DNA of 64,000 nt, from assembly GCA_000092065.1 (NCBI GenBank), contig CP000585.1; one strand, given 5' to 3'. This stretch comes from Ostreococcus lucimarinus (lineage: Eukaryota). How positions within the stretch are numbered: position 1 is the first letter of the stretch; every line of letters begins with the position of its first letter. The notes beneath the pieces are model-generated. The model made no database searches. It was not told the DNA's origin and saw only the letters and a list, made by a program, of their open reading frames with translations. A program made the position numbers and the translations under genes. Shown here in pieces: positions 4,414-48,128 of this stretch.

Positions 4414-5913
4414 ATGCGCCGTCGCGACGCCGCGCGTCGTCTCGCGCGCCTCGCGTCGTCCAACGCGCCGTCCTTCGTCGCGTGTCCCGCCGCGATGCGT
4501 CGTTGGCTCGTCGTCGACGGCGTCGCGGACGCGTTCGCGCTCGCGCGACCGAGCGCGGGGGCGGAGGCGCGCGCGCCGCGCGCGACGCTGTGGACGGAGC
4601 AGGACGAGGAGCCGCTGCCGAATCGCGCGGCGACGGTGCGAGAGGCGTTTCCCGCGCGCGGCGGGCGAGAGGGAGGGGTCGAGCGCGCGTTTCGAGGCGC
4701 GACGGAGGCGGAGCGCGCGCGAGGCGTCGACGTGGTGCTGGCGCGCGAGAACGCGAGGGAGAAACCGTTGGTCGTGGACGCGTACGCGCGCGAGAGCGCG
4801 AGAGAAACGTTTAGGCTGACGGATGCGGGCGTGGACGCGATCGCGTGGTTCGCGGCGCGCGGCGCGCGCGTGGGGGTGGAGACGGACGACGGGAACGGGT
4901 TGAGACGCGTCGAGCCGAGCGACGGATTGTTCGGAGGCGCGGAGACGTCGATCGAGGCGGGAAGGAGAGCGACGCATGGAGGGCAGAGCGCGAATGAGTG
5001 CTTGATGATCGTGCCGAGCGCGTTCGGGACGAACGCGCAGGCGGCGCGCGATAATCACTTTATGGCGTCGACGAGCGACGGATTGAGCGTTTTGGAGATT
5101 CGCGAACGCGCGGTGGCGGAGCATAAGGCGCTGTATCGAGGTTTACGAGCGCTCGGGATCGAGATTAATTTGTTCACGCACGACGAGAAGCACGCCACGC
5201 CGGACGCGTGTTTTCCGAACAATTGGCACACGCTTCGCGATGGAAAGTTGAAACTCTTTCCGATGAAGGACGAAAACCGCCGACTCGAGCGTCGGGAGGA
5301 TATCATCGAATTCTTGAAGCACAAGCACCCGAATTTGGTCGTGGACGACTCGCTGTTGCGATACGAGCGTCAAGACCCTCCAAAGTTTCTCGAAGGCACG
5401 GGATCGCTCGTGGTCGACCACGAAGAACGCGTCGCGTACGTCGCGCTTTCCGAACGCGCGCACGAGGAAGTCGTCGCCGAGCACTGCGCCGCCGAAAATC
5501 TCACGCCGATTACGTTTAAAGCCCTCGACGCTCGAGGTCGACCGATCTACCACACCAACGTCATGATGAGCGTGTGTTCTTCCGTCGCCATCGTCTGCGC
5601 CGACTCCATCGCCGATCCCGCCGATCGTCGACGCGTCCTCGACGCGCTCGCCGCGGGCGGCCGCCGTGAAATCATCACCATCACCCACGCCCAAGTCGAC
5701 GCCTTTTGCGGCAACGTCCTCGAGCTGCGCACCGCTTCCGGCGAGCCCGCCCTCGCGTGTTCCGCCCGCGCTTTCGCCGCCTTCGACGACGCGCAGCGCG
5801 CGCGACTCCGCGCCGCCTTCGACGACCGCGTCGTCGCCGTCGATTTCTCAACCATCGAGCGCGTCGGCGGCGGCGGCGTGCGCTGCGCCGTCGCCGAGCA
5901 CTTCGTTCCCTGA
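4414..5913 (+). CDS. Amidinotransferase-superfamily hydrolase (arginine deiminase / DDAH / CtlX-like) with N-terminal extension
   Basis: C-terminal ~300 aa carry 'FPNNWHT', 'HTNVMMSV' and a terminal 'GGGGVRCAVAE' catalytic-Cys motif, typical of the GME/amidinotransferase fold. First ATG at 4414. An alternative internal ATG at 5005 ('MIVPSAFGT') would give the canonical domain alone. Confidence 0.6.
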   Translation: MRRRDAARRLARLASSNAPSFVACPAAMRRWLVVDGVADAFALARPSAGAEARAPRATLWTEQDEEPLPNRAATVREAFPARGGREGGVERAFRGATEAERARGVDVVLARENAREKPLVVDAYARESARETFRLTDAGVDAIAWFAARGARVGVETDDGNGLRRVEPSDGLFGGAETSIEAGRRATHGGQSANECLMIVPSAFGTNAQAARDNHFMASTSDGLSVLEIRERAVAEHKALYRGLRALGIEINLFTHDEKHATPDACFPNNWHTLRDGKLKLFPMKDENRRLERREDIIEFLKHKHPNLVVDDSLLRYERQDPPKFLEGTGSLVVDHEERVAYVALSERAHEEVVAEHCAAENLTPITFKALDARGRPIYHTNVMMSVCSSVAIVCADSIADPADRRRVLDALAAGGRREIITITHAQVDAFCGNVLELRTASGEPALACSARAFAAFDDAQRARLRAAFDDRVVAVDFSTIERVGGGGVRCAVAEHFVP

Positions 5914-6184
5914 TCGTCCCGACGCGCGCGCCGCACCCGCGCGCGCGACGACGCGCGTTCGCGCCCATCCGTCCGACCGACCGCCTCTGTAACGACCGAC
6001 CGCCTCTGTAACGAAACCCGTTTTCGAATGCCAATGCGACATTCTCCGACGCGATCGCGCCGACGCGACGCGCCGACGCGACGCGCCGACGCACGCGCGC
6101 GACGCGCGCGAACGAACGCCGACGCGTCTCGGCGAATCGATCGCGTTCGCGATCGCGCGCGAATCCACCTAAAGTCGACGCGCC

Positions 6185-28503: not shown

Positions 28504-31500
28504 ATGCTGAAGAAACTCGGCAGTCGCAAAGATCGCGTCGTCACGTTCGTCGTCACCGTGCGCACGCTCGAACCGTGGCCCACGCGCGCGTCGGGCCGTC
28601 CCGGACAGTTCGCCATCGGTTGGCAGCGCGGCGCGAATAAACGCGGAACGACGCCCGTGCGCGCGGGCGAACGCTCCGATGACGGCGCGCGCGCGACGTA
28701 CGCGTTCGATCACACGTTTGAGGTCGAGGCGACGGTGCGCAGGGCGGGAAAGACGGGACACAAGGAGAAAACACTGACGCTGTACGTGTTGGCGCTGCCC
28801 GAAGACGCGACGCGCGGACGCGAGGTGACGGCGGCGAAGGTCGGGGCGTGCGACGTCGATCTGGCGAAATACGTCGATCGCACGGAGGATGAGACGATAA
28901 TGATCGACGTGGAGTGCGGCGAAGGGGTGCGACGGGCGGTGGGGACGCCGAAGCTTTCGATTTCCGTGCGCGCGAAGGAGGGCGGCGCGAACGCGGAGGG
29001 ACGCGAGGGCGAGGCGAACGCGGCGAACGCGTCGCCGTTGAAATCACCGACGGCGAGCGAACGCGGGGGCGAGTACCAGTGGGCGTCTTCGAGGTTTCAG
29101 TCGGAGCAGGCGAGCTCTTCGCAGGCGGATCAAGTGGAGGCGTTGACGAGCATGGCGAGCATGTTCAAAAAGCGCGCCGCGCCCGTCGAGGAAACCTCGG
29201 TCGTCGACGACGTCGTCGACGAGGGTTCCGAAGCCACGGCCAATGACGAAGCCGACGTTGAAGCGAATACGGCTCGAGCGGAACTAATCGTCGCGCGGGC
29301 GGCGACGCCGAAATCGGACGAATTTTCGTCGACGCCCGACGGCACTCCCGCGTTGGAGCAAGAAGATCCAGAGTTGACGCGAGCGCGCGACGAATTGTTT
29401 GGTGCGCCACCAAAAGATGCCGCGACGTCACCACGCGGTGACGTCGACTCCGATGGTTTCTTGCTCGATTCGGATCTGGACACCGAGGGCGAAGCGGACG
29501 AAGAGACCCCAGCGGAGTTCACTCGTCCAGTCGAAGAGTCGCCGGCGCGAGACGACTCTGAAAACGCCGCGGAGCAAGCGAGATTGGCCGAAGAAGAGGC
29601 GAGAATACGCGCTGAAGAAGACGCTGCTGTAGCTCGCATCGAAGCCGAACGCAAGGCATTTGAAGAAGAGGAGCGCCAGCTCGAAGAGCAAGCGCGACTC
29701 GAAGCTCAGCGAGCAGAGGAAGAAAGAGTTCGCGTCGACGAGGAAGCGAGGTACGCACGCATGGAAGCCGAACGCGCGCAAGCGGAAGAAGAAGCTCGAA
29801 GGTTGGCGGAAGAGGACGCGCTCTTCGCTGAAAATGCCGAGTATCAAAGACGCGCAGAGGAAGAGCAGCGCCTGCGCGCAGAGGAAGAGCAGCGCCTGCG
29901 CGCAGAGGAAGAGCAGCGCCTGCGCGCAGAGGAAGAGCAGCGCCTGCGCGCAGAGGAAGAGCAGCGCCTGCGCGCAGAGGAAGAGCAGCGCCTGCGCGCA
30001 GAGGAAGAGCGACGATGGGCTATGGAAGCCGAGGCTGAGCGCGCGCGCATCGAAGAAATTGAAAAGGCCCGAGCTCATGAAGCCGAAGCTGCGCGTAGAG
30101 CCGTGGAAGATGAAGACGTGGCGGCGGCGCAAATCGCTTCGATTGCACAGCAAGAACGTCAACAGCTGGCAGAAGAGGAAGCGATTAGAGCCGCTCAGGA
30201 AGAAGAGGAGCGACAGCGATTAGAAGATGAAAATCTTCGCACATCTGAACACGAGGCTCGATTGCAAGAGGAACGAGAACTTCAAGCCGAAGAGAACGCG
30301 AAGGCGGCTGCACGCGGCGACATTGATGTGTACGCTAAAGCAGTCATCACCGAGGGCGCGTCATCTGTCTTATTTTCGGACTCTGCTGACGACGTGACTG
30401 CGTTTGGTACACCGTCATCGCACAGCGACGACGCGTTCTACACTCCAGCCACTCGCGGGACGCGTTTCGCGGATTCGGTGCTTAAATCATCTCGCAATCG
30501 CGATTTGGAACACGAGATCGTGAGTATGTCCATTTGTGATATTCTCATTCACAGCACTGCGGAGGATTCGAGCTTCACTACCGCTCTTGGTCTTCAAGAA
30601 CGAATTGCGAGCGTGCGCGCCACGCTCGGAGAGCGCGAGTCTCAACTCGAGTTCAACAGAATCACGGACGCTTTCGGTGTCGCGATTAAAGGGGCGATGC
30701 ATAATCCAGCACGACTCGTGTTCTTATGTGCTCAGCTTATCGCGCTGCGAATTTGCGTGGCCACGATGGATGACTTGGACACGCGCGACGTGATCGAACT
30801 CGAAGTCTTGGCTCGAAACGCCGCGTTTGAGTCGCTCTGGAAGCACACTTGCAGTGCATTAGTAAACCCTGGCGAAGTGACGGAAACGCTCGCACACTTC
30901 ATGAAATCCTTCTGTGGGCCTTCGCCGAATGGAGATGGTGAGAAGATAGGTCGCGCCTGGTCTGCAATGTTTCAGCTCGCCAAGACGCGACTCGACATCA
31001 TCGGTGGCGACGCCGACGACGCCGGCTGCTCTTCGCAACTACTATTGACGCAGCTCCGACAAGGCATCTTGAAGGAGATTATTCTTGCACTTGACAAGTC
31101 TGTATTAGATGCATTGATTCATCCGTCTGGCGATGCCCTGGCAAACCCGATGATACCCGGTGGCGGCGCGTTGACGTTTTCAGCGGGTGCCGAATTGAAG
31201 CGAGCAATTTCTGTACTCGCCAGCGTCGCCAAAGATCTCAACGTTGGCACGAGTACTGAATCGATCATCCCGAAACTCAGAGCCGTCGCAGATGTGTGCA
31301 TGATTCCGAAGGACGCATTGATTGACGTCAAGCTTCGCACGGATATCGTGTGCGGCAAACTCACGGACGAGGAACTTGCCAGCGTCGTCTCGCGATTCCG
31401 CCCTGACGATTTCGCGCCCCAACCCGTGGACCCGGACGTCATCTCCGCCGTCGTCGACGCGGCGACGAATGGAAAGGGTGACACGCCCCCCGCGATCGGA

Positions 31501-31650
31501 CCTTACACCCCAATGAGCACGGAAGGCGCGCCGTGGATCGCCAACTTGGCCCGAGCGCTCGCCGCTTTCGACGGCGTTTTGCAGTCGCGAGCGCCCGGTC
31601 CCAGCGCGCACGCCACGCGTTGGTCCCTAGTCGCCGACGCTCTGCCTTAA
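28504..31650 (+). CDS. NT-C2 domain protein (EHBP1/EEIG1/PMI1-like) with Glu/Arg-rich tandem-repeat coiled coil and helical C-terminal domain
   Basis: N-terminal 'RKDRVVTFVVTVRTLEPWP...FAIGWQRGANKRGTTP...TLTLYVLAL' fits the NT-C2 fold. Central acidic region with 'EEQRLRAE' x7. Structured C-terminal ~350 aa. Confidence 0.7.
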   Translation: MLKKLGSRKDRVVTFVVTVRTLEPWPTRASGRPGQFAIGWQRGANKRGTTPVRAGERSDDGARATYAFDHTFEVEATVRRAGKTGHKEKTLTLYVLALPEDATRGREVTAAKVGACDVDLAKYVDRTEDETIMIDVECGEGVRRAVGTPKLSISVRAKEGGANAEGREGEANAANASPLKSPTASERGGEYQWASSRFQSEQASSSQADQVEALTSMASMFKKRAAPVEETSVVDDVVDEGSEATANDEADVEANTARAELIVARAATPKSDEFSSTPDGTPALEQEDPELTRARDELFGAPPKDAATSPRGDVDSDGFLLDSDLDTEGEADEETPAEFTRPVEESPARDDSENAAEQARLAEEEARIRAEEDAAVARIEAERKAFEEEERQLEEQARLEAQRAEEERVRVDEEARYARMEAERAQAEEEARRLAEEDALFAENAEYQRRAEEEQRLRAEEEQRLRAEEEQRLRAEEEQRLRAEEEQRLRAEEEQRLRAEEERRWAMEAEAERARIEEIEKARAHEAEAARRAVEDEDVAAAQIASIAQQERQQLAEEEAIRAAQEEEERQRLEDENLRTSEHEARLQEERELQAEENAKAAARGDIDVYAKAVITEGASSVLFSDSADDVTAFGTPSSHSDDAFYTPATRGTRFADSVLKSSRNRDLEHEIVSMSICDILIHSTAEDSSFTTALGLQERIASVRATLGERESQLEFNRITDAFGVAIKGAMHNPARLVFLCAQLIALRICVATMDDLDTRDVIELEVLARNAAFESLWKHTCSALVNPGEVTETLAHFMKSFCGPSPNGDGEKIGRAWSAMFQLAKTRLDIIGGDADDAGCSSQLLLTQLRQGILKEIILALDKSVLDALIHPSGDALANPMIPGGGALTFSAGAELKRAISVLASVAKDLNVGTSTESIIPKLRAVADVCMIPKDALIDVKLRTDIVCGKLTDEELASVVSRFRPDDFAPQPVDPDVISAVVDAATNGKGDTPPAIGPYTPMSTEGAPWIANLARALAAFDGVLQSRAPGPSAHATRWSLVADALP
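29852..30010. repeat. perfect 24-bp tandem repeat x ~6.6 (gcgcagaggaagagcagcgcctgc) encoding EEQRLRAE inside the NT-C2 gene
   Basis: Visible in the nucleotide sequence. The translated ORF shows EEQRLRAE repeated seven times. Confidence 0.9.
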
Positions 31651-40623: not shown

Positions 40624-42111
40624 CTAGAGTAACATCGTCATCGGATCTTCTAAATAACACTTGAAGGATTGAAGCCACTGCGCCCCCACGGCTCCATCCA
40701 CGACGCGATGATCGCAGCTCAAAGTCGCGCTCATTACCAAGACTTCCTCGTAGCCGCCCTCTGCGTTCTTGACGACTTCCTTTCTAGCTCCGCCGACGGC
40801 GAGGATCGCCGCTTGCGGCGGGTTTACGATCGCAGCGAAGTTCTTCACGCCGAACATGCCGAGGTTGCTAATGGTAAACGTGCCTCCAGTCATGTCCTGG
40901 GGCGTGAGAGAGCCGCTGCGCGCGCGGCCGGCGAGCGACTTGACTTCGGCGCTGATAGACTTCAACCCCAGGCAGCACGCAGATCGCACGATGGGCACCA
41001 TCAGCCCGCGCTCGGTCTGCACCGCTACAGAAATATCAGCTTTTTTGTACTTGCGAATCTTATCGCCCAACCAGCTGGCGTTCACGTCCGGCACCGCGAG
41101 CAACGCCTTGGCGCTCGCCTTGACGATGAAATCGTTCACGCTAATCTTCGCCCCTTCCGCAGCCTTATCATCAGCGAGCTGCTTGTTCAACGTTTCACGA
41201 ATCCCCATCATGTTATCCAAGCGCACGTCTACGGTGAGATAGAAATGCGGCAGTTGCTGCTTGCTTTCCGTCAAGCGCTCCGCGGTGACGCGCTTGATGG
41301 CGCTCACGCTCACGTCTTCGAAATCCGGGAAAAACTTGGACAACGGATGTTCCGCCACAACCGTGTGCGTCACCGCCTCACTCGCGCTCGACGCGCGCGC
41401 CGTGAGCACGTCCTCGGCGATCACGCGCCCGTTCGGCCCACTCCCGCTCACGGTCTCCAATCGCACGCCTCGTTCCTCGGCCAACCGTCTCGCCAGCGGC
41501 GACGCGAACACCCGTTCCCCGCTCGCGCGCGCGCTCATCCGCGCCGTCGCGCGCGTCGACGCCCTCACCACCGGCATCGTCACCGCCGTCTCCACCGCGC
41601 TCTTCGCCGGTTCCGTCGTCACCGTCTCCGTCGCTTTATAATCCTTAAACGCCGCCACCGCGCTCGCCTCCTCGCACATCACGCACACCGGCGTCCCCAC
41701 CTCCACGTCCGTCGCTCCCTCGGGCACCAGGATCGCCGCCAGGTACCCATCATCCGTCGCTTCCATCGCCATCGTCGCCTTATCCGTCTCCACGTCCGCG
41801 ATCGCGTCGCCGGCTTTGATTTCATCGCCGATCGCGCGATGCCACCGCGCGATCCCACCGCGCTCCATCGTCGGCGACAGCGCCGGCATCGGCAGCACGA
41901 CGTGCTCGGGGAGCGTCGACGACGACGACGCGAATCGCGCGCGCGCGGACGCGTCGAGCGCGGCGCGCGCGGCGCGCGCGCGCGAGGACGCGTCGACGGT
42001 CGCGCGCGCGAACGTCGAGGCGCGCGCGCGCGACGACGACGACGACGACGACGACGCCGGCGCGGGCGCGCGCGCGGCGGCGACGACGGCGCGAGCGAGC
42101 GCGCGACGCAT
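40624..42111 (-). CDS. DLAT: Dihydrolipoamide acetyltransferase, E2 component of pyruvate dehydrogenase (mitochondrial)
   Basis: Lipoyl domain 'PMPALSPTMERGGIARWH...IADVETDKATMAMEA', E3-binding region, catalytic domain ending 'DHRVVDGAVGAQWL'. Ser/Ala/Arg-rich presequence. Confidence 0.9.
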   Translation of the reverse strand: MRRALARAVVAAARAPAPASSSSSSSSRARASTFARATVDASSRARAARAALDASARARFASSSSTLPEHVVLPMPALSPTMERGGIARWHRAIGDEIKAGDAIADVETDKATMAMEATDDGYLAAILVPEGATDVEVGTPVCVMCEEASAVAAFKDYKATETVTTEPAKSAVETAVTMPVVRASTRATARMSARASGERVFASPLARRLAEERGVRLETVSGSGPNGRVIAEDVLTARASSASEAVTHTVVAEHPLSKFFPDFEDVSVSAIKRVTAERLTESKQQLPHFYLTVDVRLDNMMGIRETLNKQLADDKAAEGAKISVNDFIVKASAKALLAVPDVNASWLGDKIRKYKKADISVAVQTERGLMVPIVRSACCLGLKSISAEVKSLAGRARSGSLTPQDMTGGTFTISNLGMFGVKNFAAIVNPPQAAILAVGGARKEVVKNAEGGYEEVLVMSATLSCDHRVVDGAVGAQWLQSFKCYLEDPMTMLL

Positions 42112-42377
42112 CGCGCGCGCGTCGCGGCGAGCGTCGCTCGGGCGACGCGCGAGGACGTGTGCGGACGACGCGTCGGGCGCGCGTCGCGTCGAGGGCTACT
42201 CCCGGGTGTTTCGGGCGCGCGCGTCGTCGCGCGCCGCGCGTCCGACGGCGCGGCGCGATGATCGATCGAATCTGCGCGAGGAATACGCATCGCTAACTAC
42301 GCTAGAGCTAATCTACGGTCGTCGCGAACGCGCGCGCGTCGCGCGACGATTCGGCGGCGGCGCGCGCCGCGAGCGCG

Positions 42378-42989
42378 CTACGCGTCGGCGACGGCGCGGC
42401 GACCCGGCGGTAACGCCGGTTTCTTCCGCACTATCGGCGGCGCCGGCGGGTCGTCGTTCGCGCGCACGCCGTCACCGTCGCCGTCGCGCGTCCCTCTGGG
42501 AGCCGCCGCCGCGGGCGCCGCGCGAAGCGTCGTCGCCGCCAACCGTCTCGCGACTTCGGACGCCGGCGTCGCCGCCGCGCCCACGCGCACCGTCACCGCC
42601 TCGCTCGGATCGAACTCCACGAATTTCGGCGCCCTCGCCGCGACGTCGGACGTCGACCGCGCGTCGAGGTCGACGCGCGCGTCCCGCGCCGCGCGTTCCC
42701 GCGTCCCGACCGCGTCGCCGCCGCCGCGCGCCGCCGCGCGCACCTCTCCCGCGTTCGCCAGCGCCACCCCACTCGTCGTCCGCGCCAGCGCCGCGCGCGC
42801 GACCGCGACCGTCGCGCCGCGCTCGACGTCCTCGATCGTCGCCACCCCGGTCCAGCGCTCGCGCTCGACGACGACGACCTCACCGTCACCCGTCGCGAGC
42901 CGCAGTTTGAGCGTGCGACTCGCGCGCGCGTCCTCGCGCGCGCGCGCGCCGCGCGCGACGTCGCGCGCGTCCACGACGCGCAGCGCGAC

Positions 42990-43026
<37 letters not shown>

Positions 43027-43049
43027 CGCGCGACGCCCGACGGACGCAT
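42378..43049 (-). CDS. Hypothetical protein (low-complexity, Asp/Gly and Ala/Arg-rich)
   Basis: ATG-initiated 223-aa ORF filling the ~1-kb gap between PDH-E2 and the SUN gene. Its start is 49 bp from the SUN ATG (divergent). Composition is only weakly protein-like. Confidence 0.3.
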
Positions 43050-43097
43050 TGTGCGGCCGACCGACCGACCGACCGACGCGTCACAACGCCGCGCGCG

Positions 43098-43247
43098 ATG
43101 CCCGCACGCGCGCCGGCGAGGACGCGCGCGCCGGCGACGAGCGCGGAGACGCGCGCGAAAAGCGCGACGCGCGCGCGCGGAGACGCGCGCGACACGCGCG
43201 GCGCGGACGCGCGCGATGATGATTTAAACGAAAAAGATGACCGTTCG

Positions 43248-43280
<33 letters not shown>

Positions 43281-46200
43281 TGCGACGACGCGTGGGGCGT
43301 CGCGCGCGGCGAGCGAGACGTGCGCGCGGGAATGATACGCGTGCGGAGCACGGTGCCGCTGATCGTGAGCACGCTGTGCGTGGTGGTGACGGCGCTCATC
43401 GCGGTGTGCGCGCAGAGCTGGCACGTGCGCGAGACGGCGATGCGGTTGGCGAGCGTGCGATTGAGCGCGACGAGCGTGAAGCTCGGACCGACGACGAGAC
43501 GGTTGACAGCGCTCGAGGATGCGGTGAGGAGATTGGAGAGCGAGAAGGCGAGCGTGCGCGCGGTGGATGGGGTGAAGGCGACGGTGGAGGCGGAGCGCGC
43601 GGCGAACGCGGCGAACGCGGCGACGACGACGACGGACGCGAAGGTCGTCAAGACGGAGATGAAGGCGGAGTTGAAATCGGTTTTGGCGCAGATTGATGCG
43701 TTGAGTAAGCGACAAAATAGTTTCGTGACGACCGCGGAGCTTAAGAAGAGCAGTGGCGCTCTCAAGGCGGAGCTCGCGGAACTCGAAAAGACGGCCGCGG
43801 CGCTCGAAAAGAAGCAAGCGAACTTCGCGGCCAAGACGGAGCTCGCGTCGCTCGAGAAGACCACCGCGGCGCTCGACAAGGGACAAGCCAATTTCGTCAC
43901 CAAAGCGCAGCTTCAAAAGGTGAACGTCGCGAACGATCTCGCACTGTCTGCTGAGCGCTTACGAATCGACGACGCCATCAAGGAGGCCAAGTCGCTTCGA
44001 GACGCCATCGACGCCGTATCCAAGAGCTTGGCGCAGATTGATGCGTTGAGTAAGCGACAAAATAGTTTCGTGACGACCGCGGAGCTTAAGAAGAGCAGTG
44101 GCGCTCTCAAGGCGGAGCTCGCGGAACTCGAAAAGACGGCCGCGGCGCTCGAAAAGAAGCAAGCGAACTTCGCGGCCAAGACGGAGCTCGCGTCGCTCGA
44201 GAAGACCACCGCGGCGCTCGACAAGGGACAAGCCAATTTCGTCACCAAAGCGCAGCTTCAAAAGGTGAACGTCGCGAACGATCTCGCACTGTCTGCTGAG
44301 CGCTTACGAATCGACGACGCCATCAAGGAGGCCAAGTCGCTTCGAGACGCCATCGACGCCGTATCCAAGAGCTTGGCGCAGATTGATGCGTTGAGTAAGC
44401 GACAAAATAGTTTCGTGACGACCGCGGAGCTTAAGAAGAGCAGTGGCGCTCTCAAGGCGGAGCTCGCGGAACTCGAAAAGACGGCCGCGGCGCTCGAAAA
44501 GAAGCAAGCGAACTTCGCGGCCAAGACGGAGCTCGCGTCGCTCGAGAAGACCACCGCGGCGCTCGACAAGGGACAAGCCAATTTCGTCACCAAAGCGCAG
44601 CTTCAAAAGGTGAACGTCGCGAACGATCTCGCACTGTCTGCTGAGCGCTTACGAATCGACGACGCCATCAAGGAGGCCAAGTCGCTTCGAGACGCCATCG
44701 ACGCCGTATCCAAGAGCTTGGCGCAGATTGATGCGTTGAGTAAGCGACAAAATAGTTTCGTGACGACCGCGGAGCTTAAGAAGAGCAGTGGCGCTCTCAA
44801 GGCGGAGCTCGCGGAACTCGAAAAGACGGCCGCGGCGCTCGAAAAGAAGCAAGCGAACTTCGCGGCCAAGACGGAGCTCGCGTCGCTCGAGAAGACCACC
44901 GCGGCGCTCGACAAGGGACAAGCCAATTTCGTCACCAAAGCGCAGCTTCAAAAGGTGAACGTCGCGAACGATCTCGCACTGTCTGCTGAGCGCTTACGAA
45001 TCGACGACGCCATCAAGGAGGCCAAGTCGCTTCGAGACGCCATCGACGCCGTATCCAAGAGCCAGGACGTCTTCATCACGAATACTACTCTCCGACGAGT
45101 GGAGTCACAAATCGAAGCGCTGAAGAAGATGCAAGCAAAGAAGGGATTCTTCTCAACACGGCCGAAAGGGCCGGTCGTTTCCGACGAGCAGATTGCGATG
45201 CTCGAGGCCACGGTTGCTACTTTTGCGACACATTTGGCGGATTTGGAAAAGAACCAAGCCGACTTCGTGACCACAGCGCAACTGCAAAAGTTCGAGGGCG
45301 CTTCGGAGGAAATCAAGTCGCTCCAGAGGGAAATTCACGTTGTTTCCAAGAAGCAAGCCAACTACGTCAGCGTGGCGCAATTACAAAAGCTCGAAGTGGT
45401 GACGGATGAAATTAAATCGCTGCAGAGTGAGATTTCGGCGCTCGCTAAGACGCAAGACGAGTTTGCTATTCTCAGCGCGAGTCTTAAGGATGTTGAGAGT
45501 AAGATCGCGGCGTTGGCGGATGGTAAGAAGAAGACCGGGCTCCTCTCTAAGCTTTCGAAGAAGACAGACACCAAGGTCACCAACAAGCAACTTGTTGAGC
45601 TCGAGAACGCTGTCGCGACGTTGGAGAAGACTCAGACGAAATTCGCTTCGCTTGCGAGTTCACAGATCAGCACGTTGGAGTCTACTCTTGATGCGATTTC
45701 GCAGCAGCAATCCAGTGCGCTCACAGCTGCTGATTTGAAGAGTATTCAAAAGGCCATCACGGCGCTGGAGAAGAGTCAGGAAAGTTTCGCGACGACTGCA
45801 CAGCTACAGAAAGTGGATGCATCTCGAGAGATCAAGGCTTTGGAAGAAGCTTTAGCGGAGATTCTACAGAGTCAGCATTCGTTTGCGAACTCGACTGCCG
45901 TCGAAGAGCTTGAGACGAAAGTCATGGCACTCGAAGCTCGACAAAACGAAAAGCGCGGTGGGATGTTCAAGCGAAGCGCGAGCACCGACACCTCTGTCAC
46001 CAATAAGCAACTCAAGGCTTTAGAAGACACCATCGCGGCCCTGACGAAGAGTCAAGCGGACTTCGCCACGGTTACCCAGCTGAAAGAAAGTGCGCAGGCG
46101 CTTTCGCAACAGCAAGCCGGCGCGCTTACGGCGGCTGACTTGAAGGGCATTCAAAAAGCAGTCGCGTCGCTAGAAAAGAGTCAGAACGGTTTCGCGACGA

Positions 46201-48128
46201 CGGCGCAATTACAAAAGCTCGAAGTGGTGACAGATGAAATTAAATCGCTGCAGAGTGAGATTTCGGCGCTCGCTAAGACGCAAGACGAGTTTGCTATTCT
46301 CAGCGCGAGTCTTAAGGATGTTGAGAGTAAGATCGCGGCGTTGGCGGATGGTAAGAAGAAGACCGGGCTCCTCTCTAAGCTTTCGAAGAAGACAGACACC
46401 AAGGTCACCAACAAGCAACTCAAGGCTCTAGAAGACGCCATCGCGGCTCTGACGAAGAGTCAAGCGGACTTCGCCACGGTTACCCAGCTGAAAGAAAGTG
46501 CGCAGGCGCTTTCGCAACAGCAAGCCGGCGCGCTTACGGCGGCTGACTTGAAGGGCATTCAAAAAGCAGTCGCGTCGCTAGAAAAGAGTCAGAACGGTTT
46601 CGCGACGACGGCGCAATTACAAAAGCTCGAAGTGGTGACAGATGAAATTAAATCGCTGCAGAGTGAGATTTCGGCGCTCGCTAAGACGCAAGACGAGTTT
46701 GCTATTCTCAGCGCGAGTCTTAAGGATGTTGAGAGTAAGATCGCGGCGTTGGCGGATGGTAAGAAGAAGACCGGGCTCCTCTCTAAGCTTTCGAAGAAGA
46801 CAGACACCAAGGTCACCAACAAGCAACTCAAGGCTCTAGAAGACGCCATCGCGGCTCTGACGAAGAGTCAAGCGGACTTCGCCACGGTTACCCAGCTGAA
46901 AGAAAGTGCGCAGGCGCTTTCGCAACAGCAAGCCGGCGCGCTTACGGCGGCTGACTTGAAGGGCATTCAAAAAGCAGTCGCGTCGCTAGAAAAGAGTCAG
47001 AACGGTTTCGCGACGACGGCGCAATTACAAAAGCTCGAAGTGGTGACAGATGAAATTAAATCGCTGCAGAGTGAGATTTCGGCGCTCGCTAAGACGCAAG
47101 ACGAGTTTGCTATTCTCAGCGCGAGTCTTAAGGATGTTGAGAGTAAGATCGCGGCGTTGGCGGATGGTAAGAAGAAGACCGGGCTCCTCTCTAAGCTTTC
47201 GAAGAAGACAGACACCAAGGTCACCAACAAGCAACTCAAGGCTCTAGAAGACGCCATCGCGGCTCTGACGAAGAGTCAAGCGGACTTCGCCACGGTTACC
47301 CAGCTGAAAAAGGTTGCCGCCACGTTGGATGCGTTGAAAAACGTGCACGACAATTATGCGACGACGAAACTTGTGAAGAACTTGGAACTCAAGCTGAACC
47401 AGGTGATCAAAACGAGCGGGGGGCTGTCGACGACGCAGACAAATTTGGTGGAGTTAGAGCAAAGAGCGATGGAGCGCGTTGAGAGTTATATTAAAACAAT
47501 CCCGAAAGATACCTCGAGAAAGCTCACGAAACACATCGAGGAGGCTTCGAGTTTGTGGTTTGCGGACAGAACTGGAAGGCAGGACTTCGCGCTCGCTTCA
47601 GGTGGCGGGCGCGTCGTCGGTCACTCTCAGCTTTCGCCGTTTGTAGGCCGTGGCGACGGTCCCATCACGTCGGTGCTTTCGTTCCTTCAATCCGGAGTGC
47701 ATCCGAAGAGCGACGAGTGGTTACTCACGCCGTCTTTGGAGCAACCAGGGGATTGTATCGCGTTGCATTCGTCGACCGGTTATGTTGATGTTCGTTTGCG
47801 TCAGTCTGTGAAAGTGGACGCGGTCACGCTCGAGCACGCGAATAGCTTGAACGCGTACGACTTGCACAGCGCGCCACGAGATGTACAAGTATACGGTTGG
47901 CACGCACGCAAGAAGAGTTGCAAGCATAGCAAACCGCCCAAGTCGTTGATTCCTCTCGGCAACTACACGTACAGTATCAACCGCGGAAGCGTACAAACTT
48001 TCGACGTGGTGTCACCGCAGACCGTCGACCATGTGCGTCTAGTGGTGAAGAACAATCAAGGGCACCAGAAGTGGACGTGCCTGTACCGGTTCCGAGTACA
48101 CGGCGTGCCAGAACGAGTCGAAGCGTGA
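43098..48128 (+). CDS. SUN-domain (Sad1/UNC-84) nuclear-envelope protein with giant repetitive coiled-coil
   Basis: ATG start. Short acidic N-terminus (D13 run). Single TM ('LIVSTLCVVVTALIAVCAQ'). ~1,350 aa Ala/Lys/Glu/Leu-rich coiled coil built from 115-aa and 136-aa tandem units. C-terminal SUN domain ('...ITSVLSFLQSGVHPKSDEWLLTP...GDCIALHSSTGYVDVRLRQSVKVDAVTLEHAN...QKWTCLYRFRVHG'). Confidence 0.85.
43690..45060. repeat. 345-bp tandem repeat, 4 nucleotide-identical copies (115-aa coiled-coil unit 'SLAQIDALSKRQNSFVTTAELKKSSGALKAELAELEKTAAALEKKQANF...')
   Basis: Antisense ORFs at 43913-44248, 44258-44593 and 44603-44938 are identical, giving a 345-bp period. The protein shows four identical 115-aa units. 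Confidence 0.9.
45365..47300. repeat. 408-bp tandem repeat family, 3 identical copies plus divergent flanking partial copies (136-aa unit 'TNKQLKALEDAIAALTKSQADFATVTQLKESAQALSQQQAGALTAADLKGIQKAVASLEKSQNGF...')
   Basis: Antisense ORFs at 46181-46441, 46589-46849 and 46997-47257 are identical, giving a 408-bp period. An earlier diverged copy starts at ~45365. Confidence 0.9.

What the first reader, a model, noticed from the sequence alone, without database searches (positions are those of the whole stretch)
45365..47300. Second, unrelated 408-bp repeat family in the same gene (3 identical copies plus older diverged copies)
Perfect copies sit next to partially diverged flanking copies, at about 45365-45600 and the tail after 47219. 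This pattern suggests repeated rounds of internal duplication. Two independent repeat families in one coiled-coil gene point to selection for rod length rather than random slippage.
Basis: seen in the sequence. Interest (0 to 1): 0.55.

Follow-up and report, generated by a model that had tools for sequence, protein, structure and literature searches.

The report
Recently amplified repeats lengthening an Ostreococcus SUN protein
A nuclear-envelope bridge protein (SUN) of a tiny marine green alga carries a real, very recent in-frame triplication of a 136-amino-acid module. Its sister species have independently amplified different modules of the same rod, so the rod's length changes quickly between species, but nothing here shows that length itself is under selection.

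Summary
TRF finds a 408-bp array at 45374-47309, and 46041-47309 is perfectly periodic (3.11 units), in frame in one 1676-aa ORF (43098-48128, +). The ORF is a C-terminal SUN-domain protein (Pfam Sad1_UNC, E 1e-25) of an Ostreococcus species. The older copies are mosaics: the young unit equals the first half of old copy u1 (1 difference in 220 nt) plus the second half of old copy u2 (0 differences), while the other halves are near synonymous saturation. Twenty short-read metagenome scaffolds of the same species break at the repeat borders, so the repeat loop is real, but the copy number is unverified. Relatives carry different young arrays: 201 bp x4.2 and 516 bp x4.8 in a long-read sister-species contig, and 552 bp x2.7 in O. 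tauri. Orthologues range from 632 to about 1950 aa. "Unrelated" is wrong at the protein level. Both families are built from one motif (heptads, then K-x-Q-x-x-F-A/V-T-x-x-x-L), and A versus B scores z=6.3 against shuffles. "Selection for rod length" is untested, and unequal recombination in a tolerant linker explains the data. The motif fits the nonad register of trimeric beta-layer coiled coils, which is a speculative but testable idea.

The parts
43098..48128 (+). Complete intronless ORF of 1676 aa, a C-terminal-type SUN-domain protein with a short N-terminus, one TM segment, a 1431-aa luminal rod and a SUN domain.
   Evidence: The same start (MPARAPARTRAP...) is called in an independent contig of the same species (P0199). 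Synteny RsfS-TrmO-E2-SUN-EF-hand-TopoVIB is shared with O. tauri.
43353..43421 (+). Predicted transmembrane segment, aa 86-108 (VPLIVSTLCVVVTALIAVCAQSW).
   Evidence: Seen directly in the sequence. An equivalent hydrophobic segment is present in the orthologues P0200, P0065, P0201 and P0204. No dedicated TM predictor was run.
43683..45062 (+). Family A: 345-bp (115-aa) unit x 4.00, 100% identical, with sharp borders and 0 nt of junction microhomology.
   Evidence: At least 2 copies, differing by 1 SNP, appear in independent scaffolds L001, L012 and L023.
45276..45374 (+). u0: a 33-aa sub-repeat (AQLQKFEGASEEIKSLQREIHVVSKKQANYVSV) preceding old copy u1. Together with u1 it is the orthologue of the sister species' amplified 172-aa unit.
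45375..45797 (+). u1: old copy 1 of family B (141 aa). Its first half (45374-45593) is a recent identity tract with the young unit (1 mismatch in 220 nt). Its second half is old (pS about 0.55, with a 5-codon indel).
45798..46202 (+). u2: old copy 2 of family B (135 aa). Its first half is strongly diverged (pS 0.6-1.3, pN 0.3-0.5). From 46041 onward it is identical to the young units.
   Evidence: In the sister species the orthologue of u2 runs directly into the tail.
46041..47309 (+). Perfectly periodic block of 3 x 408 bp plus 45 bp. The young unit is a chimera of the u1 first half and the u2-type second half. In AQLQK phase the units are u3 46203-46610, u4 46611-47018 and u5 47019-47309 (truncated into the tail).
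   Evidence: Contig breaks in 20 scaffolds fall at 46050/46095/46493 and 46801-47255, which are the block borders offset by about 55 nt. L015/P0044 shows two tandem units differing by E/K.
45519..45581 (+). K/S/T-rich stretch of about 21 residues (DGKKKTGLLSKLSKKTDTKVT), predicted non-helical. It recurs once in each B unit, also at +828, +1236 and +1644 nt.
   Evidence: AF2 DSSP shows gaps at model residues 49-69 and 185-205 (low pLDDT). Position.
47310..47714 (+). Non-repeated tail and stalk, with one degenerate motif (LDALKNVHDNYATTKL) and helices leading into the SUN domain.
47715..48107 (+). SUN (Sad1/UNC) domain, aa 1540-1670.
   Evidence: Pfam PF07738, E 1.1e-25, 90.7 bits against a cut-off of 22. 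PDB SUN1 5ywz and SUN2 4dxt at E about 2e-20. AF2 pLDDT is 70-90 here.

Best explanation
The 408-bp family is a real, lineage-specific and very recent in-frame amplification of a 136-aa module. It lies inside the luminal rod of a canonical C-terminal SUN-domain inner-nuclear-membrane protein of an Ostreococcus species that is not O. tauri. SHOWN: the rod is built from about 30 copies of one short motif, which is two or more heptads with hydrophobic a/d positions followed by L-x-K-x-Q-x-x-[F/Y]-[A/V]-[T/S]-x-x-x-L. Old duplications of multi-motif blocks produced paralogous units u1 and u2, which are shared with sister species. Recent events produced a chimeric unit (u1 first half plus u2-type second half) that now stands three times, head to tail and identical, between u2 and the tail. 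INFERRED: these recent events were unequal homologous exchange and/or gene conversion between the paralogous units. The same process acted independently on the N-proximal 345-bp family, and on different segments in sister species (201 bp x4.2 and 516 bp x4.8; 552 bp x2.7). INFERRED: each event adds helical linker between the membrane anchor and the SUN head. The two young arrays add 753 aa, taking the protein from 923 to 1676 aa. The gene tolerates this because the linker is modular and only in-frame products keep the C-terminal SUN domain. The simplest reading is a recombination-prone, length-tolerant linker, meaning mutational bias plus purifying selection on frame and motif. Rod dN/dS is 0.13-0.23 against 0.06 for the SUN domain. 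Directional selection for length is not required by the data.
For: The array and its perfect block are established, and it is in frame in the single ORF. The genus follows from the 90%-identity cluster of the L003 protein, which contains O. tauri CEF98022.1, and TopoVIB neighbours give Bathycoccus and Mantoniella at 68%. The mosaic is shown: u1 codons 1-68 differ from the young unit at 1 of 204 nt and then pS is about 0.55; the u2 first half has pS 0.6-1.3 and then 0 differences from 46041; the switch falls at the conserved TDTxVTNKQL stretch. Lineage specificity is shown because the sister-species u2 orthologue runs straight into the tail, while that species amplified the u0+u1 orthologue five times, and O. 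tauri amplified a 184-aa unit overlapping u2 and the tail. The array is real in nature: 20 scaffolds from at least 6 projects, 99-100% identical to the window, break at the repeat borders offset by about 55 nt, and L015/P0044 spans two tandem units with an E/K difference. The shared motif is supported by 13 occurrences against 0.12 expected in shuffles and an A-versus-B Smith-Waterman z of 6.3 with 0 of 2000 shuffles reaching it, by the position-specific a/d pattern in 48 non-redundant instances, and by an unbiased F/Y anchor. The rod sequence is restricted to this clade: 8 hits among 1.84e9 representatives, of which 5 are SUN orthologues.
Against: The copy number in the window (3.11 and 4.00) is not independently verified, because every short-read assembly collapses or breaks there. 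Gap-free contigs of the same species give a 919-aa form with one A unit and no u1b or u2, which could be a real short allele and not a collapse. The exact sequence of events that placed a 1a+2b chimera downstream of u2 is not reconstructed: one unequal crossover does not produce it. No expression, localisation or KASH-partner data exist. The helical nature of the rod rests on a sequence pattern and a low-confidence monomer model (pLDDT 35-47).
Confidence: 0.8

Rival explanations
1. This is adaptive length tuning. Under it, longer luminal rods are favoured, and the independent expansions in two parts of the gene and in several species reflect selection for rod length.
For: At least five independent young arrays occur in three species, all with unit lengths that are multiples of 3: 345, 408, 201, 516 and 552 bp. 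Expanded forms reach 1067-1950 aa, against 632-877 aa in unexpanded relatives.
Against: In-frame units are a survivorship filter for any gene whose essential domain is C-terminal, so they are not evidence for positive selection. The lengths do not converge: 1067, 1676 and about 1950 aa. Identical copies carry no substitution signal. A motif-rich substrate predicts recurrent unequal exchange without any selection. The literature shows that removing 300 aa from the UNC-84 linker leaves function and nuclear-envelope spacing intact (PMC4615189), so linkers tolerate length change. O. tauri even carries a 193-bp out-of-frame duplication, which fits a mutational process.
Confidence: 0.2
2. The array is an assembly artefact, produced by mis-assembly or over-expansion of a single-copy or two-copy region in the window's source assembly.
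For: Perfect identity over 1.27 kb is what an assembler error could also produce. Gap-free contigs of the same species show only about 1.7 young units and one A unit. No reads are available for checking.
Against: Assemblers collapse repeats far more often than they expand them. Twenty independent scaffolds break exactly at the predicted graph branch points, which requires at least two contexts for each repeat border. L015/P0044 shows two tandem units distinguished by a SNP. L001, L012 and L023 show two A units. A long-read contig of the sister species has 4-5 copies of its own units, where the short-read version of that species shows 1-2.
Confidence: 0.07
3. This is ancient array homogenised by concerted evolution. 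Under this view the identical copies are old units kept identical by ongoing gene conversion, not recent additions, and the sister species lost them.
For: The sharp-edged identity tracts (45374-45593 and 46041 onward) look like conversion tracts. Every species examined has some array in this zone.
Against: The unit lengths, phases and amplified segments differ between species: 136 aa, 172 aa and 184 aa. That pattern is not expected if one old array were being homogenised. Unexpanded relatives (P0201 at 877 aa, P0204 at 632 aa) lack such arrays.
Confidence: 0.1

Closest known systems
Ostreococcus tauri CEF98022.1 / XP_022839032.1 'Sad1/UNC-like, C-terminal' (1067 aa)
   Same: It is the orthologue, in the same syntenic position (TrmO, E2, SUN, TopoVIB) and with the same architecture (short N-terminus, one TM, motif-built rod, C-terminal SUN). 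It also contains a young tandem array.
   Different: Tail plus SUN is 73% identical in amino acids, and synonymous sites are saturated. Its array is a 552-bp (184-aa) unit x2.7 covering the orthologue of u2 plus the tail, not the 408-bp unit. It has no 345-bp family, and it carries an extra out-of-frame 193-bp duplication.
Human SUN1/SUN2 and C. elegans UNC-84 (LINC-complex SUN proteins)
   Same: They share the C-terminal SUN domain (E about 2e-20 to PDB 5ywz and 4dxt), the type II topology and a helical luminal linker between the TM segment and the SUN domain. The rod has been proposed as a roughly 45-nm 'molecular ruler' (PMC4615189).
   Different: The luminal region here is 1431 aa, about 215 nm if fully helical (inference), which is several times the 30-50 nm perinuclear space. 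It is made of clade-specific tandem modules with no detectable sequence similarity to animal linkers. The cysteine position that aligns to 'STRCSETY' of SUN1 is not a cysteine here.
Plant Cter-SUN proteins (e.g. Physcomitrium A0A7I4F0I8, Selaginella SUN1; 455-471 aa)
   Same: These are the best named homologues of the SUN domain, at 36-39% identity, and they have the same Cter-SUN class architecture (PMC7982736).
   Different: Plant proteins have a short coiled-coil region of about 150 aa without the K-x-Q-x-x-F-A-T motif array. There are no long tandem arrays.
Trimeric alpha/beta coiled coils with beta-layers (Thermosinus Tcar0761 MATKDDIAN nonads; Actinobacillus OMP100; Hartmann et al. 2016, PMC4786415)
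   Same: The register a-b-c-beta1-beta2-beta3-e-f-g is matched by Q-x-x-[F/Y]-[A/V]-[T/S]-x-x-[Q/D/E]-L, with a 9-residue a-to-a step embedded in heptads. The sub-repeat spacings fit too: 23 = 2x7+9 and 58 = 7x7+9. Known beta-layer proteins are homotrimers, as are SUN domains.
   Different: Beta1 is aromatic, not aliphatic, and K at position e is only occasional. There is no homology to DUF1640 or DUF3782. No structure supports it, since the AF2 monomer breaks the helix at only one of the three motifs per unit and at low confidence. The search term 'eukaryot' returned no occurrences in the main text of that paper, though mitochondrial DUF1640 proteins are mentioned.

Membership tests
C-terminal SUN-domain (Sad1/UNC-84) inner-nuclear-membrane proteins | [quoted passage not shown] | tested here: met
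   PF07738 at aa 1540-1670, E 1.1e-25, 90.7 bits against a cut-off of 22. phmmer to PDB SUN1/SUN2 gives E about 2e-20 over aa 80-271 of the C-terminal query.
C-terminal SUN-domain (Sad1/UNC-84) inner-nuclear-membrane proteins | Single transmembrane segment N-terminal to a long luminal region (type II topology) | tested here: met
   There is one 23-residue hydrophobic segment at aa 86-108 and no other in the 1676 aa. It is conserved in position in five orthologues. This was judged by eye from the sequence, and no TM predictor was run.
C-terminal SUN-domain (Sad1/UNC-84) inner-nuclear-membrane proteins | Helical stalk immediately preceding the SUN domain that supports trimerisation | tested here: inconclusive
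   AF2 predicts helices up to model residue 317 (about aa 1488), just before the domain, but with pLDDT below 50 and as a monomer.
C-terminal SUN-domain (Sad1/UNC-84) inner-nuclear-membrane proteins | Conserved intradomain cysteine pair (PGxC ... TCLYRFRVHG context) | tested here: met
   Both cysteines align with those of human SUN1 in the phmmer alignment. That they form a disulfide is from prior knowledge of SUN2 structures.
C-terminal SUN-domain (Sad1/UNC-84) inner-nuclear-membrane proteins | Inner-nuclear-membrane localisation and binding of a KASH-type partner | not testable with these tools
   No localisation or interaction data exist, and no KASH candidate was searched for.
In-frame coding tandem-repeat array generated by unequal exchange | Head-to-tail copies with a unit length that is a multiple of 3, in the reading frame | tested here: met
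   408 bp = 136 codons and 345 bp = 115 codons, in a single ORF.
In-frame coding tandem-repeat array generated by unequal exchange | Copy-number differences between individuals or strains | tested here: inconclusive
   Same-species assemblies show 1, 2 or 4 A units and 1.1-3.1 young B units. All the alternatives are short-read assemblies, which collapse repeats.
In-frame coding tandem-repeat array generated by unequal exchange | Mosaic or chimeric units with sharp identity-tract borders between paralogues | tested here: met
   The young unit equals u1 at 45374-45593 (1 mismatch) plus the u2 type from 46041 (0 mismatches).
Alpha/beta coiled coil (beta-layer nonads, Hartmann et al. 2016) | Nonad register a-b-c-b1-b2-b3-e-f-g within heptads, with b1 hydrophobic, b2 small (A/V) and the next hydrophobic a at +9 | tested here: met
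   In 48 non-redundant instances the large-hydrophobic frequency is at least 0.83 at -14, -11, -7 and -4; Q is at 0; F/Y is at +3; A/V is at +4; T/S is at +5 in 34 of 48; hydrophobic frequency is 0.88 at +9 and 0.83 at +12. An unbiased F/Y anchor gives the same picture. The criteria come from PMC4786415.
Alpha/beta coiled coil (beta-layer nonads, Hartmann et al. 2016) | Consensus [aliphatic]-A-T-K-[polar]-[D/E] | tested here: inconclusive
   A/V-T/S is matched, but b1 is F/Y and not aliphatic, position e is K in only a minority, and position g is Q/D/E in about 30 of 48.
Alpha/beta coiled coil (beta-layer nonads, Hartmann et al. 2016) | Homology to known beta-layer families (DUF1640, DUF3782) | tested here: not met
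   No such hit appears even at E up to 10.
Alpha/beta coiled coil (beta-layer nonads, Hartmann et al. 2016) | Trimeric beta-layer backbone geometry | not testable with these tools
   Only monomer AF2 is available. The rod has pLDDT 35-47, and the helix breaks at NGF in one motif per unit only.
SUN 'molecular ruler' rods (SUN1/2, UNC-84) | Luminal rod length commensurate with the 30-50 nm perinuclear space (about 45 nm) | tested here: not met
   The luminal region has 1431 residues, about 215 nm if fully helical at 0.15 nm per residue (an inference). Orthologues vary about threefold. The ruler figures come from PMC4615189.

The most novel reading that the evidence does not exclude
The luminal rod of Ostreococcus SUN proteins may be a trimeric alpha/beta coiled coil, in which each of the roughly 30 Q-x-x-F-A/V-T-x-x-x-L nonads forms a beta-layer. 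That would be the first such fibre at a eukaryotic nuclear envelope. Because modules are gained and lost by unequal exchange, its length has changed about threefold (632 to about 1950 aa) among closely related picoalgae. It now exceeds the width of the perinuclear space several-fold in the smallest known free-living eukaryote. If so, this small clade is a natural experiment for the unresolved 'SUN rod as nuclear-envelope ruler' question.
Probability: 0.3. Interest if true: 0.6.

Novelty: new variant of a known kind. Interest (0 to 1): 0.4.

Why it matters
SUN proteins bridge the nuclear envelope, and whether the length of their luminal rod sets or follows the spacing of the two nuclear membranes is still debated. 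This study finds a clade in which the same orthologous SUN gene ranges from 632 to about 1950 aa through recent modular amplifications. The linker is potentially four or more times longer than the lumen is wide. That offers naturally occurring length variants for cryo-ET and genetics in a tractable, tiny cell.

There is also a practical lesson. Short-read genomes and metagenome gene catalogues report this protein as 267-390-aa fragments or as a collapsed 919-1060-aa form. Protein lengths and repeat numbers for such genes in public catalogues are therefore unreliable.

The heptad-plus-nonad motif gives a concrete, testable structural hypothesis for a eukaryotic beta-layer coiled coil.

Tried and rejected
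- **Exact look-ups.** The 1676-aa protein and the E2 neighbour are not on record. Only TopoVIB is present, and only in metagenome or SRA assemblies, so the species could not be named. A TopoVIB homology search gave no named hit above 68%, the best being Bathycoccus and Mantoniella.
- **RNA genes.** Rfam and tRNA scans of the window found nothing.
- **Global periodicity.** A Fourier analysis of hydrophobic periodicity showed no 3.5-residue peak. The peaks were at about 11.4 and 3.36. I therefore dropped the idea of one uninterrupted canonical coiled coil. The local motif-anchored analysis explains this by nonads and loops that reset the phase.
- **Structure prediction.** AF2 on the last 505 aa with a 14-sequence alignment gave pLDDT 52 overall and 35-47 in the rod. 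That was too poor for a fold search, so none was run, and the second AF2 job was not used because a monomer cannot test a trimeric beta-layer.
- **Weak hits.** The weak hits to the rod (P0202 FAZ1-like, P0203 plant NLR, P0205) are unrelated proteins.
- **Pfam on rod pieces.** A permissive scan gave only sub-threshold generic coiled-coil noise and no DUF1640 or DUF3782.
- **Replication slippage.** Rejected as the mechanism, because the units are 345-552 bp and the young unit is a chimera of two paralogues.
- **Mobile element or foreign insertion.** Rejected, because the units are in frame, homologous to flanking units and lack terminal repeats. The antisense ORFs are at most 86-110 aa and simply repeat with the unit.
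- **Dating the intermediate-age duplication.** This failed because synonymous sites are saturated between species (pS 0.66-0.82) and nearly so between the old halves (0.55).
- **Same-species long reads.** None of the same-species contigs above 200 kb turned out to be long-read assemblies.

Full report
**1. The observation**

Tandem Repeats Finder reports a 408-bp array at 45374-47309 with 4.7 copies and 83% matches. A lag scan shows exact identity at lag 408 from 46041 to 46901, so 46041-47309 (1269 bp) is three identical units plus 45 bp. 408 bp is 136 codons, and the array lies in frame in the only long ORF of the region, 43098-48128 on the + strand, 1676 aa. The only other large tandem array in the 64-kb window is the 345-bp x4.00 family at 43683-45062 in the same ORF.

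**2. What the gene is**

The C-terminus is a Sad1/UNC (SUN) domain: PF07738 at aa 1540-1670, E 1.1e-25, 90.7 bits against a cut-off of 22. It aligns to solved human SUN1 and SUN2 domains at E about 2e-20, including both cysteines of the PGxC...TCLYRFRVHG pair. The N-terminal 85 residues are charged and of low complexity. Residues 86-108 form the only hydrophobic segment, and residues 109-1539 (1431 aa) form the luminal region. This is the canonical Cter-SUN architecture.

The 90%-identity cluster of one relative contains O. tauri CEF98022.1, annotated 'Sad1/UNC-like, C-terminal'. Gene order is shared with the O. tauri reference. The neighbouring TopoVIB is 88-90% identical to other unnamed picoalgal sequences and 68% identical to Bathycoccus and Mantoniella. 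The window therefore comes from an Ostreococcus species other than O. tauri. I could not name the species, because its proteins occur only in metagenome or SRA assemblies.

**3. Anatomy of the 408-bp family**

In the phase that starts at the recurrent AQLQK, the family consists of these pieces:

| Piece | Coordinates | Size |
|---|---|---|
| u0 | 45276-45374 | 33 aa |
| u1 | 45375-45797 | 141 aa |
| u2 | 45798-46202 | 135 aa |
| u3 | 46203-46610 | 136 aa |
| u4 | 46611-47018 | 136 aa |
| u5 | 47019 onward | leaves the repeat at 47309 and becomes the non-repeated tail |

Codon-level comparison shows a clean mosaic. The first 68 codons of u1 differ from the young unit at 1 of 204 nt. Similarity then drops abruptly to pS about 0.55 and pN 0.1-0.45, with a 5-codon indel. 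The first 69 codons of u2 are very divergent (pS 0.6-1.3), and from 46041 on there are no differences at all. The switch lies in the stretch TDTxVTNKQL, which both old copies share.

The young unit is thus a chimera of the u1 first half and the u2-type second half. The identity tracts have sharp edges, at 45374-45593 and from 46041. That is the signature of recent unequal exchange or gene conversion between older paralogues, and it directly supports 'repeated rounds of duplication'. A single unequal crossover cannot place a 1a+2b unit downstream of u2, so at least two or three events are needed, and I could not reconstruct their order. Family A has exactly 4.00 units with no junction microhomology.

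**4. Is it real or an assembly artefact?**

No reads are available, but independent assemblies help. Twenty short-read metagenome scaffolds from at least six projects are 99-100% identical to the window, and several are 100% identical in the unique flanks. Every one has its contig ends at repeat borders offset by about 55 nt, a typical de Bruijn k-mer length:

- For family A, contigs end at 43737 or 44082 and resume at 44663 or 45008.
- For family B, contigs end at 45428, 45592, 46050, 46095 or 46493 and resume at 46801-47255.

Position 46493 is exactly where the unit can continue either into another unit or into the tail. A JGI contig (L015, protein P0044) spans two tandem B units that differ by one E/K substitution. 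Three scaffolds resolve two A units that differ by a SNP. The repeat loops are therefore real in natural populations.

The copy numbers in the window are not verified. Two gap-free JGI contigs give a 919-aa protein with one A unit and a direct 1a-to-young-b join. That is either the usual shortest-path collapse or a real short allele.

**5. Relatives**

The opposite is found.

- **Sister species.** A long-read, pilon-polished 850-kb contig (L006) has a SUN domain about 76% identical in amino acids, with saturated synonymous sites. It carries a 201-bp unit x4.2 near the N-terminal end of the rod, and a 516-bp (172-aa) unit x4.8, identical at the protein level, near the C-terminal end. The gene totals about 1950 aa and is interrupted by one frameshift in the fifth copy, which looks like a long-read indel. 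Its amplified unit is the orthologue of the window's single u0+u1. Its u2 orthologue runs straight into the tail, so the window's 3x408 block is absent there. The short-read version of that species shows only 2.2 copies of the first unit with a gap in the second array (L002), or 1060 aa when collapsed (P0200).
- **O. tauri.** The reference has a 552-bp (184-aa) unit x2.7 covering the u2-plus-tail orthologue.
- **More distant relatives.** These are 877 aa (P0201) and 632 aa (P0204, SUN domain E 8e-28) and have no young arrays. Another relative (P0079) has a run of 19-aa repeats.

Without its young copies the window protein would be 923 aa. So different segments of one ancestral rod have been amplified independently and recently in at least three lineages.

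**6. Are the two families unrelated?**

At the DNA level only motif-length matches of about 50 nt link them. At the protein level, unit A and unit B align at 31% identity over 117 aa. The Smith-Waterman score is 97, against 49 +/- 7.6 for 2000 shuffles, giving z = 6.3 with none reaching it.

Both are built from one motif. It occurs about 30 times in the protein, and 13 times in the non-redundant rod against 0.12 expected. A profile of 48 non-redundant instances from seven orthologues gives these positions relative to the conserved Q:

| Position | Feature |
|---|---|
| -14, -11, -7, -4 | large hydrophobic residues, frequency at least 0.83 |
| -2 | K in 33 of 48 |
| 0 | Q in 36 of 48 |
| +3 | F or Y |
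| +4 | A or V |
| +5 | T or S in 34 of 48 |
| +9 | hydrophobic, frequency 0.88 |
| +12 | hydrophobic, frequency 0.83 |

Anchoring only on aromatic residues, with no motif imposed, gives the same picture. Both families are therefore higher-order repeats of one primordial unit. The duplication events themselves are independent, but the sequences are not unrelated.

**7. Structure of the rod**

The motif is a heptad a/d series (-14 a, -11 d, -7 a, -4 d, Q at a) followed by a 9-residue step to the next a position. The common sub-repeat spacings fit this: 23 = 2x7+9 and 58 = 7x7+9. The global Fourier peak near 11.4 is about 23/2, and there is no global 3.5 signal.

Hartmann et al. (PMC4786415) showed that nonads in trimeric coiled coils form beta-layers. 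The register is a-b-c-beta1-beta2-beta3-e-f-g, with beta1 hydrophobic, beta2 small (A or V), and the consensus [aliphatic]-A-T-K-[polar]-[D/E]. The motif Q-x-x-F-A/V-T/S-x-x-[Q/D/E]-L maps onto that register, and SUN domains are trimers.

There are several reasons for caution:
- Beta1 is aromatic here, not aliphatic.
- There is no homology to the families named in that paper.
- The only model I could make was a monomer with a shallow alignment, with pLDDT 35-47 in the rod. It breaks the helix at only one motif per unit.
- That model also predicts a K/S/T-rich loop of about 21 residues in each B unit.

I treat the beta-layer reading as a hypothesis with probability about 0.3.

**8. Function and selection**

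Each young unit adds linker between the membrane anchor and the SUN head, and the young copies together add 753 aa. If fully helical, the 1431-aa luminal region would be about 215 nm long (inference). SUN1/2 rods are modelled at about 45 nm to span a 30-50 nm perinuclear space, and removing 300 aa from UNC-84 did not change spacing or function (PMC4615189).

The rod is under purifying selection, but weaker than that on the SUN domain: dN/dS is 0.13-0.23 against 0.06. Nothing in the data tests selection for length. Identical copies carry no substitution signal. In-frame units are required simply to keep the C-terminal domain. Lengths across species do not converge. O. tauri even carries an out-of-frame 193-bp duplication. 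The economical explanation is a recombination-prone, length-tolerant modular linker. Adaptive tuning remains possible, at about 0.2.

**9. Comparison and novelty**

The gene is a clear member of the Cter-SUN family, and the O. tauri orthologue is already annotated as such. I found no description in the searched literature of the following: the clade-specific motif-built luminal rod, which has only 5 orthologous representatives among 1.84 billion; its rapid modular length change; or its great length relative to the lumen. I rate it a new variant of a known kind, of moderate interest.

Noticed in passing
L004 3858-4244 (O. tauri CAID01000005.2, SUN gene): There is a perfect 193-bp tandem duplication inside the O. 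tauri SUN gene. 193 is not a multiple of 3, and a straight read-through gives ...KRDADT-EVGVANAGRF-stop. The annotated CDS spans 3253 nt for a 1067-aa protein, so a 49-nt intron must have been annotated that restores the frame. This could be an assembly artefact, a real frameshifting duplication rescued by splicing, or an annotation fix.
   Followed up: partly
window 29851-30010 (in ORF 28504-31650, +): There is a perfect 24-bp x6.7 tandem repeat encoding RAEEEQRL six times, inside an E/R/A-rich charged helical stretch of a 1048-aa ORF. It is the only other perfect tandem array in the window with a TRF score of at least 300.
   Followed up: no
L006 about 5800-6000 (long-read contig of the sister species): The SUN gene there is split into 1562-aa and 386-aa ORFs by a frameshift in the fifth 516-bp unit (KKTETETQVS where the other copies read KKTETQVSS). 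It is most likely a residual long-read indel error. The intact gene would be about 1950 aa.
   Followed up: partly
P0079 (950-aa partial SUN orthologue from a JGI metagenome): This protein has a run of a dozen or more 19-aa repeats (LPKxDxxKEIKxLxxAVxx) in the rod. They are absent from the otherwise similar 877-aa P0201. It is another independent expansion, this time with a much shorter unit.
   Followed up: no
window 41917-43312: This is an extremely GC-rich stretch (about 73% GC) with CG-dinucleotide and CGA/GAC low-complexity arrays. It spans the E2-SUN intergenic region and the first roughly 70 codons of the SUN ORF, including a run of ten aspartates. Long spurious ORFs are open on both strands here.
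   Followed up: no
window about 47590-47650 (SUN domain, aligned to SUN1 'STRCSETY'): At the position where the aligned human SUN1 sequence has a cysteine, the window protein has none (it reads GHSQLSPF). From memory, that human cysteine is the one that forms the intermolecular disulfide with KASH peptides. The intradomain cysteine pair is conserved.
   Followed up: no
L001-L003, L007-L027; proteins P0001, P0048-P0050, P0199, P0200: Public metagenome gene catalogues list this SUN protein as 267-, 361- or 390-aa fragments that start after scaffold gaps, or as collapsed full-length forms of 919 or 1060 aa. Every short-read scaffold examined has 100-N gaps inside the gene. Catalogue lengths for this gene are therefore artefacts.
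   Followed up: yes
P0006 (Physcomitrium SUN), start of its coiled coil: The moss SUN protein has 'LEDFVTKTTKW' just after its TM segment. This single F-V-T-K element resembles the Ostreococcus motif, but Selaginella and Persea have different residues at that position. It may be a coincidence.
   Followed up: no
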